From the IMG/VR virus record IMGVR_UViG_3300004213_000011, positions 1 to 46,914 of that record: a stretch of DNA of 46,914 nucleotides; one strand, 5' to 3'. The translations under genes and the position numbers were made by a program. Numbering within the stretch: the first letter of the stretch is position 1; each line of letters starts with the position of its first letter. The notes beneath the pieces were generated by a model. That model did no database searches, was not told where the DNA came from, and saw nothing but the letters and a program-made list of their open reading frames with translations. The stretch comes from a virus. Its lineage: Duplodnaviria; Caudoviricetes. Below are positions 1 to 46,853 of this stretch, in pieces.

Positions 1-20
1 TATACAAATATACGCAAATA
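1..20 (-). promoter_or_regulatory. Phage promoter repeat copy (TTTGCGTATATTTGTATA), truncated by the window edge
   Basis: Same core as the copies at 7531, 8406, 9956, 35745 and 44815; contains TATATTTG, the Bacteroidota -7 element. Confidence 0.8.
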
Positions 21-68
21 AAATAATACAGTTATTAACAATTTAAAAAAGTTATTAACATTTAAGTT

Positions 69-1910: not shown

Positions 1911-2564
1911 TCACAATATAATCTTACCAGTTAATATACTGTTTCTATACTGCCGATACTTTTCCTCTTTGCTTAACTCCTCTTTTTCGCCTTCTGTAAA
2001 GTTTGTAGCCTTTTTAAGAACTTGTAAATATTCGTCGCTTATTTCAGAAAAATCGTTTTCAGATTCTTTGTGTTTTTGGGCGTCCTCGAATGCCTTTTGT
2101 TCTACTGCCGCCTCTCTTTCTTTTATATATTCAGAAAACCAAAGATGCACTGTCATAGCATCAAAGGAACCAAAAATTTTACCGAACCGGCCTGTAACGC
2201 CCTCCCGAAAACAAAAAACTATTTCATCGAACTTTAAATACCAGTACTTAGTTAAAATTTCGTTAGATAAATATAAAATCTGGTCTATATTTAATTTTTT
2301 TTCATTAGTCAGATTAAATTTATTATTGTAAAAAGTAATTATTCTAGAAATACTCATACCTACTTCCTGCGAGTTTTCCTTTCTAAGCTTACTTAACTGA
2401 TCGCTTTGCAAAGCTGTTGCAATAGTAACGCTACTTTGTGCGCTTTCAAATGCCATTAAAGCCTGGACATTATTATTAATGTCCTGAGAAGTTATAATTT
2501 CTTGCAGCCTCGGTAATTTCTTTGTCGCTAATCTGATTAGTTGGTTGTTTTTTTGCGAGTCCAT
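1911..2564 (-). CDS. Replication-associated protein (helicase loader-like position)
   Basis: Directly downstream of the initiator; Y.YLK.DEI..CF..G..G.FGK pattern recalled from Bacteroidota phage genes in this position. Confidence 0.45.
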   Translation of the reverse strand: MDSQKNNQLIRLATKKLPRLQEIITSQDINNNVQALMAFESAQSSVTIATALQSDQLSKLRKENSQEVGMSISRIITFYNNKFNLTNEKKLNIDQILYLSNEILTKYWYLKFDEIVFCFREGVTGRFGKIFGSFDAMTVHLWFSEYIKEREAAVEQKAFEDAQKHKESENDFSEISDEYLQVLKKATNFTEGEKEELSKEEKYRQYRNSILTGKIIL

Positions 2565-3405
2565 TTTTAATCTGGTTAAGAATATTGTTTATGTTTGAAT
2601 TTATTTGAGTAAGCTTTAATTGTTGCTGCAAAAAAGGCTCTAATTTTTTCCAGTTTTCAAAAATATATTTTAAGCCGTTTATTGCCCCTAATTCGTCTTT
2701 AGTATTGGATATTTTTACAAGGTATTTTTTTAATTTTGCAGCGGCCACCCCGTCCGCTGCTGTAAAGTCTGGTTCTACCCCTACTTCATTTTTGTAAAAC
2801 TCTACATAGGTATCAGTAAATTGTTTATGTAAATTTTCGCTCGCGCCCTTAGTTTGCGTAGCCTCTTTTGGCGGTTTAGGCTCATCAATATCATTTTTTA
2901 AGGGGGTTGCTTCAGCAACTGTTTCTCCCTCTTTTTTAGGGTTTAAAGGTTTAATAGGTTTTAAGGTTTTAAGGTTTATATATGACTGTAATGCTTCTGC
3001 AATAGCTTTTACCTCTGCTTCTGCATACGCTTCTGCAAGTGCTTCTGCAACTGCTTCTGCATCTGCTTTTACATTTAATGCAGAAGCATTTTTATACGCT
3101 TGCCCTATCTCGCTAGGTTCTTGAATTAGGGTAACCTTATTACAAGTGTACTGATTTTTGCTTTTTTCTACCCACATTATAAATCCATTATCAGACAAAA
3201 ATTGCAATGCAGACTTATAAGTTCTCCAGTCTGTAACACCTAAACACTCCATAGATTTTTCAGTTTGGATGTCAATTATTTTTTTCCAGCCGGATGCATT
3301 TCCACGCTCCAAAATCCAAAAGTATAAGGCAGTATGTACGGGTTTTACGCCAGCATTTTCATAAGCAAAAGAAAACCATATGCGCGATAAATTATAACTA
3401 TTCAT
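2476..3405 (-). CDS. Replication initiator protein (N-terminal winged HTH)
   Basis: HTALYFWILE..N..GW N-terminus, central low-complexity AEA repeat encoded by DNA iterons; lambda O-like layout. Confidence 0.75.
   Translation of the reverse strand: MNSYNLSRIWFSFAYENAGVKPVHTALYFWILERGNASGWKKIIDIQTEKSMECLGVTDWRTYKSALQFLSDNGFIMWVEKSKNQYTCNKVTLIQEPSEIGQAYKNASALNVKADAEAVAEALAEAYAEAEVKAIAEALQSYINLKTLKPIKPLNPKKEGETVAEATPLKNDIDEPKPPKEATQTKGASENLHKQFTDTYVEFYKNEVGVEPDFTAADGVAAAKLKKYLVKISNTKDELGAINGLKYIFENWKKLEPFLQQQLKLTQINSNINNILNQIKNGLAKKQPTNQISDKEITEAARNYNFSGH
2937..3087. repeat. Iteron array plus AT-rich repeats; probable replication origin
   Basis: GCTT(C/T)T(G/A)C units at 12-bp period (2993, 3005, 3017, 3029, 3041, 3053, 3065), an inverted copy at 3079-3087, and adjacent AGGTTT repeats at 2937-2978. 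Confidence 0.7.
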
Positions 3406-41758: not shown

Positions 41759-43249
41759 TTAATTGCGATTAATTATTTTTTTCTTATCTTTCCCGAAATA
41801 AAATTCAAGAAGCTGCATTACAAATATATCTACTTCGTCATCATGCGTACTGTTCGGGAATGCTGAACATTGATTTTTAAACGTTGTCGTCCAGCCGGAG
41901 CCATCTTCAATAAGTACTACCCGGCCTACCTGGATAATATCCGTTATTGCGTGGGCGCGTACTATTTTATCTTTATCGTCCATCCTTACACCCCGTACCC
42001 GTGGAAACTTGTATTGCTCGACGTTTACCGTTGTAGCCTTTTTTATAGATTGCACTACACTAAGGCCCGAGGCCTTTGGTTCAATTCTAATGTAACTTTT
42101 TAGGCCGTACCCGTTGGCCTGGGCAAATTCATCTATATATTCGCAAAGTGCTGGCAGTTCTTTTCGTACAGATTGCACCCGGCGTATATAGGTTATGTTA
42201 TCAACTAAGCAAGCCGACAATATTGCGGAGGGATCGTTTTGCGTTTTCTCTGTATAAGCTGTATCCACTTTGAACTGCCATATTACCTCCCGGTTTTTTG
42301 TTCTATCTAAAAACTCTGGCCAGGTGATTAAACCGAATTTTTCAGTTTTTATAATATTACCCTCTAATGGGCGCGGGTTTTGTTGGTATAAGCTGTTATA
42401 AGTCCGGGGGCTGCTTTCCTTTTGTTCTAATATTGTTTCTTTGCTGTGTTGCTCTTCCCATAGTGCTTCCCCTATTTGCCTGGGGTCGTTAGGGTTATTG
42501 TTATTTTCTTTTATTGCAGGTAAGCTTATAACCGTCCATTTCCTGGGCAAACCTTTTAACGCACGGGCATCGTCCTCTTTTAACAAGCGGCCCGCTAAAT
42601 CGTCTTCGTGCCAACGGGTTTGGAGGAGTAATTGTTGAGAGCCGTTATGGAGTCGGGTTTTGAATACGTCCGTATACCAAGCCCAGACATTCCGGCGTAT
42701 AATTTCGCTTTCTGCCTCTATCCTATCCTTAAAGGGGTCATCAATTATCCCTAAGTCTACAGACGTTCCAGTAAGCGGCCCCCGAACGTAAGCGGCTTTG
42801 AAAAAACCCCGGTGCCCGACAATTTCAAATACTTCACTATTCCGTAAAGTTGCCCCCTTTGCATCAGAGGCGACGTTTTTCCCGTTTAGTTTTGTATCCG
42901 GGAAAACAGAAGCGTAAGTACTAGTGTCTATTATTCTTTGTGCATCGCGGTTGAATCCGAAACTTAAATCCCCGCTATAACTACAAACAGCGATTCTGCA
43001 ATTGGGGTCTAAGCCTAGCTTGTAGGCCGGGAACTGGCGGCTACTTAATTCACTTTTCCCGTGCTGTGGAGGCACGAATATCATTAAATTGGTTATCTCC
43101 CTACGTGCAAACTTATCCAGTACCTCGCATATATATCTATGGTGCCAGTTAACACGGTAATCCGGTTTGTTGTGCAAAACAAAACGCAAAAATTTACGCT
43201 TAGCTAAGTTGTTTTGTACAGAAGAAAGGCGGGGTGCTTCTAAAACCAT
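41759..43249 (-). CDS. terL: Terminase large subunit (start revised to MVLEAP)
   Basis: Walker A PPQHGKS, Walker B GIIDDP, QTRWHEDDLAG, LYQQNP, VDTA, IEPKASG, FPN..HDDEVD. Confidence 0.95.
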   Translation of the reverse strand: MVLEAPRLSSVQNNLAKRKFLRFVLHNKPDYRVNWHHRYICEVLDKFARREITNLMIFVPPQHGKSELSSRQFPAYKLGLDPNCRIAVCSYSGDLSFGFNRDAQRIIDTSTYASVFPDTKLNGKNVASDAKGATLRNSEVFEIVGHRGFFKAAYVRGPLTGTSVDLGIIDDPFKDRIEAESEIIRRNVWAWYTDVFKTRLHNGSQQLLLQTRWHEDDLAGRLLKEDDARALKGLPRKWTVISLPAIKENNNNPNDPRQIGEALWEEQHSKETILEQKESSPRTYNSLYQQNPRPLEGNIIKTEKFGLITWPEFLDRTKNREVIWQFKVDTAYTEKTQNDPSAILSACLVDNITYIRRVQSVRKELPALCEYIDEFAQANGYGLKSYIRIEPKASGLSVVQSIKKATTVNVEQYKFPRVRGVRMDDKDKIVRAHAITDIIQVGRVVLIEDGSGWTTTFKNQCSAFPNSTHDDEVDIFVMQLLEFYFGKDKKKIINRN

Positions 43250-43253
43250 GCTG

Positions 43254-43263
43254 CTAATATACG
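43254..43263 (-). promoter_or_regulatory. Variant promoter core CGTATATTAG just upstream of terL
   Basis: Identical to 41737-41746; 4 nt from the ATG. Confidence 0.5.
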
Positions 43264-43274
43264 AAATAAAACGC

Positions 43275-43301
43275 AAAAAGGCCACCCGGTTAAAGGTGGC
43301 C
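43275..43301 (-). terminator. Intrinsic terminator closing the ncRNA unit
   Basis: GGCCACC-TTTAACCG-GGTGGCC followed by T5. Confidence 0.85.
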
Positions 43302-43652
43302 TTACTCATTTGAGAAACCGGGCAACTCATTTATATATCTTATATCACCGGTTTTAACACCAATTCGGGGTGTCGCCTGTCTTTTTAGCTTTAGTAGCTA
43401 TCTCTAAAACTAAAAAGCTTTTTCAGCGGGGAGACAGCTTTGCAGCTTACACATTTAACTTAACGTTAGCTATTCGTCAAATTAAATGCTTCTGTTTTCA
43501 CGCCTCCCCTATCGGGGTTTGTTGTGGAGTGTTTGGATCGAACCCAGGCGCCTTTTACACAGCCCACCCCATTTAACTTGTAAGTCCTATAATTAACGAC
43601 CTTTAGGTATTAGTAGCACGGAACGGTCATGCGGCCTACTTACAAGCTTGTT
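43275..43652 (-). ncRNA. Putative ~375-nt structured non-coding RNA
   Basis: No credible minus-strand ORF; own promoter and terminator; 9-, 15- and 14-bp stems with G-U pairs valid only on the minus strand; T-loop-like GGTTCGAT. Confidence 0.7.
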
Positions 43653-43656
43653 TTAA

Positions 43657-43670
43657 CAAATATACGTAAA
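43657..43670 (-). promoter_or_regulatory. Promoter of the ncRNA (TTTACGTATATTTG)
   Basis: Variant of the repeat core containing TATATTTG. Confidence 0.7.
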
Positions 43671-43697
43671 TAAAATAAAAAGTATACTTGTTTTGGT

Positions 43698-43724
43698 AAA
43701 AAAGCCACCTGGTTAAAAGTGGCC
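43698..43724 (-). terminator. Intrinsic terminator upstream of the ncRNA promoter
   Basis: GGCCACTT-TTAACC-AGGTGGCT followed by a T tract. Confidence 0.8.
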
Positions 43725-43749
43725 CTGGAGTATGCGAAACGCCAGTATT

Positions 43750-44037
43750 TTAATTTTTACTAAAGCTGTTTTTAACATTTTCTTCTCGTATCTTTTCAGA
43801 AGCAAAAGTAAGTAATTCTTCTTTCAAGCCATCCAGCGCTATCATACCCAAAAAATCTGGTAACCCTGGAATAAAGATAGTCATTGTTAAAAACATTTCA
43901 GTAGCTCCGCTATAAAAACAAGTTTTAATTTCTTCTTGCTTATCAGCTGGCATGTTTTTATAATCTTCATAATTTGCATCAATGAATTTTTGGAACATTG
44001 ATTGCATAAATAAAACTTCTTTGTTGTTGTCGTCCAT
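43750..44037 (-). CDS. Hypothetical phage protein
   Basis: Q.EE....FYSGA motif. Confidence 0.6.
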   Translation of the reverse strand: MDDNNKEVLFMQSMFQKFIDANYEDYKNMPADKQEEIKTCFYSGATEMFLTMTIFIPGLPDFLGMIALDGLKEELLTFASEKIREENVKNSFSKN

Positions 44038-45627: not shown

Positions 45628-45956
45628 TTGTTTTCTGGTTTTTCTAGCGGGGAAAATAAAATATCTGCAAGTTGTTCAGTAAAGCCGCAACGGGAACATG
45701 CGGTAACGTTTTTCCCGAACATATTTATTGTATCCATGCGGTGGCCTAATAATTCACATTGTGCTAGGTGCTTTTCAAAGTCTTCGTAATTATCAAGTGC
45801 CCTGGCTACATAATCACGTTCGCTGGTTATTTTCTTTAATCCCTCTTGTTTAGCAAGGGGTAAATAAATATCGTTGTACTGTTGGATAGCAAGCTGTATG
45901 TATAAACGCTTACGATTGCTTAACTCTTCTTTTGGAGGTGTTCCGTTGCTTTGCAT
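45624..45956 (-). CDS. Hypothetical protein with C..GH...CxxC zinc site
   Basis: CELLGH...CSRCG. Confidence 0.6.
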   Translation of the reverse strand: MQSNGTPPKEELSNRKRLYIQLAIQQYNDIYLPLAKQEGLKKITSERDYVARALDNYEDFEKHLAQCELLGHRMDTINMFGKNVTACSRCGFTEQLADILFSPLEKPENK

Positions 45957-45959
45957 GAA

Positions 45960-46391
45960 TCATTTTTCTATATTTTCTAATGATTTTATAACGCCAGTAA
46001 TAGTTGTAGTTATATAGTGAAACATCTTATACATCAATTCTGGCTCCTGATAATCATCAGTCAATACTATAACCGGTTTATTTGAACCAGCAAACCAGCC
46101 AGCTTCTGAGTGAGCAGAACGCCCGGAAGGTAAAACCAAAACACAAACATCAGCCCAAACCATAGCATTAAAATCAGAAGCAAACCCGTCCTTAGCAGCT
46201 TTATGTTCAAGAGCTTTTATAAAATCGTTAGCAGTCCATTTTAACCAGTTAGTGTCGATTTCTGACCATGCAAACCCCGTTCTATTGGGTGGATTTTTAA
46301 AATCATAAACCTCATGCCCTACAGCCCGTAAGGCTTGCACTACTTCTGGCTGAGTATTATTGCGCCAACTACTTGCTACATAAATTTTCAT
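45960..46391 (-). CDS. Nucleoside 2-deoxyribosyltransferase-like protein
   Basis: KIYVASSW, D.....WAD..V, G.SAH.E.G motifs of the NDT/RCL fold. Confidence 0.7.
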   Translation of the reverse strand: MKIYVASSWRNNTQPEVVQALRAVGHEVYDFKNPPNRTGFAWSEIDTNWLKWTANDFIKALEHKAAKDGFASDFNAMVWADVCVLVLPSGRSAHSEAGWFAGSNKPVIVLTDDYQEPELMYKMFHYITTTITGVIKSLENIEK

Positions 46392-46765: not shown

Positions 46766-46853
46766 CGGCAAGGCCGGGACTCGAACCCGAATATTTAGAG
46801 TGGTAGTTTAATTCCCAGTAGCCCTTTGCGTCTGCCAGTTCCGCCACCTTGCC
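46766..46853 (-). tRNA. Atypical tRNA (Leu-type D arm, possible UAA anticodon, non-canonical anticodon arm)
   Basis: GGCAAGG/CCTTGCC acceptor stem, TGGCGGAACTGGCAGACGC D arm, GGGTTCGAGTCCC T arm; no encoded CCA. Confidence 0.75.

What the first reader, a model, noticed from the sequence alone, without database searches (positions are those of the whole stretch)
43381..43489. Twin hairpins with the same self-complementary loop (UAGCUA): kissing-loop oligomerisation module
Seen: hairpin A (43451-43489) GCATTTAATTTGACG-AATAGCTAA-CGTTAAGTTAAATGT, 15 bp with 3 G-U pairs. Hairpin B (43381-43417) CTTTTTAGTTTTAG-AGATAGCTA-CTAAAGCTAAAAAG, 14 bp with 1 G-U pair. The stems are unrelated, but both 9-nt loops hold a 6-nt palindrome preceded by purines. 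Established: this matches the HIV-1 DIS kissing-loop layout (9-nt loop, 6-nt palindrome). Inference: A-B, A-A or B-B kissing could close the RNA on itself or build dimers and rings, like pRNA hand-in-hand contacts.
Basis: partly seen in the sequence, partly recalled or inferred. Interest (0 to 1): 0.85.

Follow-up and report, generated by a model that had tools for sequence, protein, structure and literature searches.

The report
Orphan phage RNA with twin palindromic loops
An uncultured bacterial virus has a 378-base gene-free stretch that its closest relative lacks, likely transcribed as a folded RNA, in which two long hairpins show the same self-pairing six-letter loop and would let copies of the RNA stick to each other, although no relative or experiment yet confirms this.

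Summary
Both hairpins are real, on the minus strand (z -4.8 and -4.0), and both loops hold UAGCUA. None of 4,814 control hairpin pairs shares a 6-nt palindrome. Two corrections: the stems are probably related (8 identical pairs in register, p 0.013-0.04), which suggests an old duplication; and loop B is predicted to close on itself, hiding half its palindrome. The hairpins lie in a ~378-nt non-coding unit with a Bacteroidota-type promoter and its own terminator, just upstream of terL in a Bacteroidota-type siphovirus. The closest relative (TerL 70%, capsid 80%) has the same flanking genes but no such unit, so it is accessory cargo, not a core packaging RNA. It matches no Rfam family, and I found no homologue, so covariation could not be tested. 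Loop A copies the HIV-1 DIS layout exactly, but its helix has four A-U pairs and is weak (-5.1 versus -7.9 and -10.9 kcal/mol). Best reading (0.40): a standalone phage RNA that dimerises through two weak, cooperative kisses, like MuLV SL-C/SL-D. Main rival (0.27): duplicated protein-binding hairpins. Verdict: a real orphan RNA candidate; kissing is plausible but untested.

The parts
43698..43725 (-). Terminator-like hairpin plus U run closing the upstream operon; near copy of the terminator at 43275-43303
   Evidence: Read from the sequence and aligned with the other copy and with L005. Not listed by the scan, whose loop limit is 8 nt.
43657..43664 (-). Bacteroidota-type -7 promoter element TATATTTG; predicted start of transcription about 43652
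   Evidence: One of 7 copies of a repeated promoter-like motif in the window (family D2). Consensus TANNTTTG with last G at -5 from PMC6847099 passages. The start site is inferred.
43275..43652 (-). Predicted standalone ~378-nt non-coding RNA
   Evidence: -119.5 kcal/mol, z -4.53, 0 of 100 shuffles as stable. Without the terminator, z -4.16 on minus against -1.66 on plus. No ORF of 50 aa or more lies inside it on this strand; the longest minus-strand ORF is 33 aa. No Rfam match.
43575..43648 (-). 5' domain closed by an 11-bp helix (43648-43638 with 43585-43575); interior ambiguous, with competing short helices
   Evidence: Mean pair probability 0.94. The 5' part alone (43513-43650) is not more stable than shuffles, z -0.47.
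43513..43571 (-). Domain with a UUCGA T-loop-like hairpin (43546-43534). An alternative fold resembles a mini tRNA (acceptor-like helix with a G-U pair at position 3, no anticodon arm).
   Evidence: Hairpin probability 0.89. The tRNA-like fold is the minimum only in isolation, z -0.04. Not found by ARAGORN or Rfam. The motif labels are recalled.
43428..43509 (-). 9-bp helix (43509-43501 with 43436-43428) closing the junction that carries hairpin A and a small GCAA-loop hairpin (43447-43436)
   Evidence: Mean pair probability 0.91; small hairpin 0.41
43451..43489 (-). Hairpin A: 15 bp, loop AA-UAGCUA-A (43474-43466), palindrome 43472-43467 fully exposed
   Evidence: pair probability 0.99. Palindrome unpaired at 0.99 or more for 4 of 4 start sites tried.
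43381..43417 (-). Hairpin B: 14 bp, loop AGA-UAGCUA (43403-43395), palindrome 43400-43395, predicted half-closed in the monomer
43315..43374 (-). 3' domain: 6-bp hairpin (43374-43356) and a stem (43354-43348 with 43321-43315) with a large AU-rich loop
   Evidence: Probabilities 0.94 and 0.85; alone z -0.93
43275..43303 (-). Intrinsic terminator ending the RNA (10-bp stem, U run)
   Evidence: -16.9 kcal/mol; homologous in position and loop to the single terminator of L005
43254..43261 (-). Second promoter-like element (TATATTAG) directly before the terL start codon, so terL likely has its own, possibly leaderless, transcript
   Evidence: Sequence; a similar element lies before terL in L005. Function inferred.
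41759..43249 (-). Terminase large subunit (neighbour, not part of the RNA)
   Evidence: phrog_38, E 3e-92; PF03237 and PF17289; 44% identical to Flavobacterium phage 1/32 TerL. Start at 43249 supported by the alignment.

Best explanation
The two hairpins are arms of a 378-base stretch, bounded by promoter-like and terminator-like signals, that is likely a standalone phage non-coding RNA, and their shared UAGCUA loops are predicted to pair between molecules so that the RNA would form a dimer held by two weak kisses. Shown: the hairpins, the shared palindrome, the flanking signals, the strand bias, and the absence of the unit from the closest relative. Inferred: transcription by host polymerase from about 43652 to 43275; origin of A and B by an old duplication, with the loop heptamer AUAGCUA kept while the stems drifted with pairing intact; and Mg2+-dependent kissing, A-B'/B-A' or A-A'/B-B', in which avidity pays for opening loop B. 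Different stems would stop A and B from mis-pairing with each other. The likely role is accessory cargo: an abundant compact RNA particle, as proposed for ROOL and GOLLD, probably a decoy or scaffold for host factors. My split: about 0.75 that it is an RNA gene, and about 0.5 that the loops kiss between molecules if it is.
For: Hairpin stability and minus-strand bias: all 4 non-Watson-Crick stem positions are G-U on this strand. Unit z -4.5, and -4.2 without the terminator. Promoter copy and terminator. In L005/G001 the homologous upstream genes (34% and 41%) run to one terminator and then terL; the window has two near-copies of that terminator with the unit between them. Shared palindrome p about 1e-4, and 0 of 4,814 control pairs. 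Even after a duplication, only about 6% of 9-nt loops would hold a 6-nt palindrome. Loop A equals the DIS layout with central G-C pairs. Both palindromes sit at the 3' side of the loop behind purine linkers, the geometry expected of kissing loops (recalled). Precedent for twin identical self-complementary loops that cross-kiss: MuLV SL-C/SL-D (PMC7357161 section 2.2). No A-B extended duplex is predicted, while A-A and B-B are.
Against: No homologue, so no covariation (95/99/100, 109, 111). The kissing helix is AU-rich and weak, -5.1 kcal/mol, and DIS variants with more than one A-U pair replicate poorly. Loop B is predicted closed, 0.92. Duplication alone explains why the loops are identical. 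The folding signal comes mostly from the A/B core: the 5' and 3' parts alone give z -0.47 and -0.93 on the minus strand, and the 5' part folds better on the plus strand, z -2.15. Nothing tested bears on the biological role.
Confidence: 0.4

Rival explanations
1. It is the same RNA gene, but A and B are duplicated protein-binding hairpins (a sponge or decoy). The conserved AUAGCUA loop and the U-G wobble are read by a protein, and the palindrome is incidental.
For: Stems related in register, including the wobble, which lies 8 nt 5' of the palindrome in both. Shared heptamer longer than the palindrome. Weak duplex and closed loop B.
Against: A chance palindrome is only about 6% likely, and loop A also has the exact DIS flanks. 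The two loops are predicted to fold differently (open 9 nt against 4 nt plus a bulge), which fits one protein site poorly. No candidate RNA-binding partner among 40 window ORFs scanned with Pfam, although about 7.7 kb of the full contig was not seen.
Confidence: 0.27
2. A and B kiss within one molecule, as a tertiary strut that compacts a monomer.
For: The loops are mutually complementary and 72 nt apart, so local concentration is high. This is the only such pair in the window.
Against: An internal kiss needs complementarity, not two palindromes. A near-coaxial kiss would put the two stem bases roughly 95 A apart, yet only 33 nt join them, about 20 of them in helices (my estimate from recalled A-form dimensions, not modelled).
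Confidence: 0.12
3. The hairpins are not a functional RNA module: DNA inverted repeats or decayed foreign DNA that happens to fold.
For: Orphan in every collection searched. Flanking domains alone fold no better than shuffles. Other intergenic gaps in related phages also reach z below -4, 5 of 25 gaps (only 8 shuffles each).
Against: All stem imperfections are G-U on one strand, a promoter and a terminator bound the unit on that same strand, and compensatory differences between A and B keep every pair.
Confidence: 0.08
4. The unit is a cis-acting leader (attenuator or antiterminator) that controls read-through into terL and the late genes.
For: It lies directly upstream of terL on the same strand. 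43570-43561 can pair with the terminator's 5' strand (-13.8 kcal/mol), and that strand is predicted paired in the nascent fold.
Against: That pairing is not beyond chance (7.6% of 500 shuffles do as well) and is weaker than the terminator (-16.9). terL has its own promoter-like element, also present in L005, which lacks the unit.
Confidence: 0.07
5. It is a pRNA-like ring on the packaging motor, possibly standing in for the small terminase subunit.
For: Adjacent to terL. A TerS-like gene of G001 (phrog_309, E 5e-32) has no homologue in the window, and none of its 38 hits lists the 54,626-bp contig length of this phage.
Against: Two of three other near-complete relatives tested (G406, G421) also lack that TerS match and show no match to the RNA, so the two traits are not linked. 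About 7.7 kb of this phage was not seen. Palindromic loops give no head-to-tail direction. TerL is of the ordinary two-domain type.
Confidence: 0.04

Closest known systems
MuLV/MuSV SL-C and SL-D (SL1/SL2) twin hairpins (PMC7357161 section 2.2 read; PMC5874298 passages)
   Same: Two neighbouring hairpins with the same self-complementary loop, able to form two kisses per dimer
   Different: There: GACG tetraloops with 2-bp kisses, inside a retroviral genome leader. Here: 9-nt loops with a possible 6-bp kiss, in a predicted standalone RNA of a DNA phage. No sequence relationship is claimed.
HIV-1 dimerisation initiation site, SL1 (PMC7357161, PMC5874298, PMC10483063 passages)
   Same: Loop A: two 5' purines, 6-nt palindrome with central G-C, one 3' purine; a homo-extended duplex is predicted
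   Different: DIS is a single hairpin with a GC-rich palindrome. Here there are two, with four A-U pairs, about half the duplex energy, and loop B is 3+6+0 and predicted half-closed.
ROOL and GOLLD RNAs (PMC12286853 passages; PMC12990946 part 1 of 5 and passages)
   Same: Large non-coding RNAs of phages and prophages, function unknown; ROOL is non-essential in one strain; protein-free oligomers built with kissing loops
   Different: 550-830 nt, with many covarying pseudoknots, often near tRNA islands. This RNA is ~378 nt, has no Rfam match even at E 10, and lies 3.1 kb from a single tRNA-like gene.
phi29 prohead RNA (PMC7357161 passage)
   Same: Phage RNA with two interacting loops per molecule
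   Different: pRNA loops are complementary but not palindromic, which gives head-to-tail rings in the motor. Here the loops are palindromic and the RNA is missing from a close relative.

Membership tests
HIV-1 DIS-type kissing loop | 9-nt loop: two 5' purines, 6-nt palindrome, one 3' purine | tested here: met
   Loop A only; loop B is 3+6+0
HIV-1 DIS-type kissing loop | Central two G-C pairs in the palindrome | tested here: met
   UAGCUA; requirement from PMC5874298 passage
HIV-1 DIS-type kissing loop | GC-rich palindrome, at most one A-U pair | tested here: not met
   Four A-U pairs; -5.1 against -7.9 and -10.9 kcal/mol
HIV-1 DIS-type kissing loop | Palindrome exposed in the monomer | tested here: inconclusive
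   A exposed (0.99); B predicted half-paired (unpaired 0.07-0.08 at two positions), 1.7 kcal/mol from open
HIV-1 DIS-type kissing loop | Mg2+-dependent dimer, rescued by compensatory loop changes; covariation in homologues | not testable with these tools
   Needs bench work; no homologue found
ROOL / GOLLD / OLE / ARRPOF / other Rfam families | Match to the family covariance model | tested here: not met
   Only a tRNA at 46766-46853 reaches a gathering score. In 43100-43900 the 7 matches at E<=10 have E 0.42-6.5 and lie far below their cut-offs.
ROOL / GOLLD | Protein-free symmetric oligomer | not testable with these tools
   Needs mass photometry or cryo-EM
phi29 pRNA | Two complementary, non-palindromic loops | tested here: not met
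   Both loops carry the same palindrome; definition
phi29 pRNA | Required motor part, present in related phages | tested here: not met
   No match in G001, 99% complete, TerL 70%; 0 of 32 capsid-related records with the model. A very divergent analogue would be missed.
tRNA / tmRNA | Cloverleaf, or tRNA-like domain plus tag frame | tested here: not met
   ARAGORN finds 0 genes (it also missed the weak tRNA that Rfam found); no Rfam tRNA or tmRNA match in the unit
Riboswitch / attenuator leader | Antiterminator pairing that competes with the terminator | tested here: inconclusive
   -13.8 against -16.9 kcal/mol; 7.6% of shuffles do as well

The most novel reading that the evidence does not exclude
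The RNA is the first member of an undescribed phage RNA family that self-assembles without protein through two identical DIS-type loops into rings or chains and acts at the DNA-packaging motor: it sits at terL's doorstep in a phage where the relative's small-terminase gene was not found. The milder form, a higher-order RNA-only assembly with an accessory role, I put at about 0.15.
Probability: 0.04. Interest if true: 0.9.

Novelty: new variant of a known kind. Interest (0 to 1): 0.5.

Why it matters
Natural RNA-only oligomers are few (PMC12990946, part 1 read), and their roles in phages are unknown. A short, self-contained RNA gene with two identical palindromic loops is a cheap, direct test of whether DNA phages use the retroviral dimerisation trick, and of how two weak AU-rich kisses set valency (dimer, ring or chain). 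It would also be a clear case of an RNA gene gained or lost as a promoter-to-terminator cassette. If the loops do not kiss, it remains an uncatalogued phage RNA of modest interest.

Tried and rejected
Homologue searches, none successful. BLASTN against phages: 20 records, all 23-33-nt chance pieces. Plasmids: 1 terminator-sized piece. BLASTN and nhmmer over 244 loci gave only self hits and a 19-nt piece. Viral pattern scans: 0 hits. The twin-loop pattern gave 119 loci from 27 of 64 parts of the collection, so it was incomplete; none had both stems above 7 pairs. Other patterns gave 9 loci, none homologous, and 64 loci, none homologous, several of them tRNAs. Single-sequence covariance model R1: no homologous hit in G001, 97 of the terL loci, 36 capsid loci, 32 whole viral records or 151 genomes of the order of G005. 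Such a model is insensitive to distant relatives. DNA search: 9 of 401 genomes of that order at E<=0.01, all 20-41-nt pieces; 0 of 401 of the phylum (pattern 0 of 401); 1 of 49 viral records, a 22-nt piece. Eight close TerL relatives exist as proteins (65-72%), but DNA was reachable only for L005. Sequencing runs: no RNA holder listed. Two DNA runs hold the stretch; one may be its source, the other covers 43238-43396 with no difference. Earlier-findings look-ups by place and sequence were empty. Literature searches showed no description of this RNA. In the supplements of PMC10690425, 4 of 6 listed files were searched for the loop sequences with 0 hits; two zip files and three over-large files could not be searched and may hold candidate alignments. 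Rejected ideas: tmRNA or tRNA; a small protein; a repeat relation between the two GGGG-started domains (p 0.38); CRISPR repeat-spacer and attC readings (judged from the sequence only: hairpin A sits inside a closing helix, and the GTTRRRY-like box is at the stem top). Structured gaps in relatives L397, L403 and L410 do not resemble this RNA. A full-length model was too long to calibrate. A profile search of the TerS-like protein was still queued and was not collected.

Full report
Observation. Hairpin A (43451-43489) folds as 15 pairs with 3 G-U and a 9-nt loop (z -4.79). Hairpin B (43381-43417) has a 14-pair stem with 1 G-U (z -4.02). The plus-strand forms are far weaker. UAGCUA lies at 43472-43467 and 43400-43395. 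Two random 9-nt loops share a 6-nt palindrome about once in 10,000. In 279 control loci not selected by loop pattern, 0 of 4,814 neighbouring hairpin pairs did, while 37 of 4,814 had 6-bp complementary loops. It is the only such pair in the window, and G001 has none.

Two corrections. First, the stems look related. The hairpins align at 25 of 47 columns, and 8 stem pairs are identical in register, including the U-G wobble, which lies 8 nt before the palindrome in both. Shuffling pair order gives p 0.013-0.019 for identical pairs and 0.037-0.05 for letters. That is modest evidence for an old duplication, and it removes much of the surprise that the loops are the same; it does not explain why the loop is a palindrome (about 6% by chance). 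Second, loop B is predicted to close two extra pairs that use the C and U of its palindrome (probability 0.92, 1.7 kcal/mol at 37 C). Loop A stays open.

Setting. The window is a linear virus record, 88% complete, with terminase, portal, capsid-like and tape-measure genes. Its best named TerL relative is Flavobacterium phage 1/32, 44%. The hairpins lie in the gap between a small ORF (43750-44037) and terL (41759-43249). A TATATTTG element at 43664-43657 is one of 7 copies of a repeated promoter-like motif and fits the Bacteroidota -7 consensus (PMC6847099, passages), which places the start near 43652. An intrinsic terminator lies at 43303-43275. The 378-nt unit folds at z -4.53; without the terminator z is -4.16 on the minus strand and -1.66 on the plus strand. 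Most of this signal comes from the A/B core (z -5.78); the 5' and 3' parts alone are unremarkable. No minus-strand ORF exceeds 33 codons, and no Rfam family or ARAGORN gene matches.

The closest relative. L005/G001 (TerL 70%, capsid 80%, 99% complete) has homologues of the two upstream genes, then one terminator, a promoter-like element and terL. The window has two near-copies of this terminator with the unit between them. G001 has no match to the unit by DNA search or model. The unit is therefore a promoter-to-terminator cassette gained here or lost there. No other relative with terL inside its fetched locus (L383, L391, L394, L395) shows a gap of 220 nt or more directly before terL.

Homologues. 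None was found: annotated phages and plasmids, 244 loci, mostly terL-related, five viral pattern scans, one of them truncated at 27 of 64 parts (checked in 37, 74, 75, 99, 100), model searches, and samples of 401 genomes from the order and 401 from the phylum of G005. These searches miss distant relatives, and DNA for seven of eight close TerL relatives was out of reach. No RNA run was listed, which says nothing about expression.

Mechanism. I favour a standalone RNA whose two loops pair between molecules. Loop A has the DIS layout of two purines, palindrome and one purine (PMC10483063, passages) and the central G-C pairs found necessary in selections (PMC5874298, passages). Both palindromes sit at the 3' side of the loop behind purine linkers, as kissing geometry wants (recalled). 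Against this, the helix has four A-U pairs, -5.1 kcal/mol against -7.9 and -10.9 for the HIV palindromes, and the same review says variants with more than one A-U pair replicate poorly. Two kisses per dimer could compensate, as in MuLV SL-C/SL-D, where twin identical loops cross-pair (PMC7357161, section 2.2 read). The differing stems allow A-A and B-B extended duplexes but not A-B. Palindromic loops give no direction, so a closed dimer is likelier than a pRNA-type ring (PMC7357161 passages). The biological role is inferred only by analogy with ROOL and GOLLD, phage RNAs that form protein-free cages and have no described function (PMC12286853, passages): an accessory decoy or scaffold. Confidence 0.40.

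Rivals. Duplicated protein-binding hairpins (0.27) fit the related stems and the weak helix. An internal A-B kiss (0.12) is geometrically strained by my rough estimate. A functionless insert (0.08) does not explain the one-strand G-U pairs and the flanking signals. An attenuator (0.07) has a possible antiterminator pairing, but 7.6% of shuffles do as well, and terL has its own promoter-like element. A packaging RNA (0.04) has one lead: G001 carries a TerS-like gene in a 3.3-kb block absent from the window, with no homologue in the window and no hit listing this phage's contig length. However, 2 of 3 other near-complete relatives lack that match too without having the RNA, and about 7.7 kb of this phage (contig of L085, 54,612 bp) was not seen.

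Comparison and novelty. It may work like DIS or SL-C/SL-D but is a member of neither; it fails the GC-rich criterion, the pRNA criteria and every Rfam model. Eight literature searches showed no description. For PMC10690425 I saw the listing and searched 4 of 6 held supplements without a hit; the unread files may bear on novelty. I read part 1 of 5 of PMC12990946 plus passages and part 1 of 5 of bioRxiv 10.64898/2026.07.01.735769 for context. Earlier AI notes describe other phage RNAs with twin palindromic loops. They share no sequence words with this one and I did not test them, so they are leads, not support. Motif names such as T-loop and GNRA are recalled.

Verdict. A real, non-random feature in a probable orphan phage RNA gene: a new variant of a known kind, interest 0.5. 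It is easy to test at the bench, but it rests on one sequence.

Noticed in passing
L366:5313-5867 (G001); corresponding window junction near 45956-45960: The closest relative has a TerS-like HTH gene 6 kb upstream of terL, in a 3.3-kb block missing from the window; no TerS was recognised in the window.
   Followed up: partly
window 46766-46853, minus: A weak tRNA (Rfam 38.4 bits, long variable arm, Leu-like by recall, no CCA), missed by ARAGORN; no tRNA in G001.
   Followed up: no
window 4-47, 7543, 8418, 9968, 35757, 43656, 44827, minus: Seven copies of a promoter-like motif. Five continue with the same 12 letters downstream, but the copy before the RNA does not. The motif is also repeated in G001.
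   Followed up: partly
window 43254-43261 and L005:3990-4003: terL seems to start at the predicted transcription start, which suggests a leaderless message in both phages.
   Followed up: no
window 43546-43534, 43500-43496, 43425-43421, minus: Three T-loop-like motifs (UUCGA, UGAAA, UGAAA) and a GCAA tetraloop hint at tertiary packing; labels recalled, not tested.
   Followed up: no
window 43520-43571, minus: Alternative mini-tRNA-like fold with a G-U pair at acceptor position 3 (alanine-type mark, recalled), two bases short of a canonical T arm.
   Followed up: partly
L410:4123-4444, L403:562-1113, L397:3354-4163: Strongly folded intergenic stretches in capsid-related phages (z -6.0, -4.7, -5.5), unlike this RNA; L397 had no Rfam match, and the other two were not scanned.
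   Followed up: partly
L433:18-103 and L452:301-386: A perfect 86-base palindrome at both ends of one viral contig, like the hairpin telomere of a linear phage plasmid (interpretation recalled).
   Followed up: no
window 2992-3086: Short 12-base tandem repeats inside the ORF 2476-3405 (D4).
   Followed up: no
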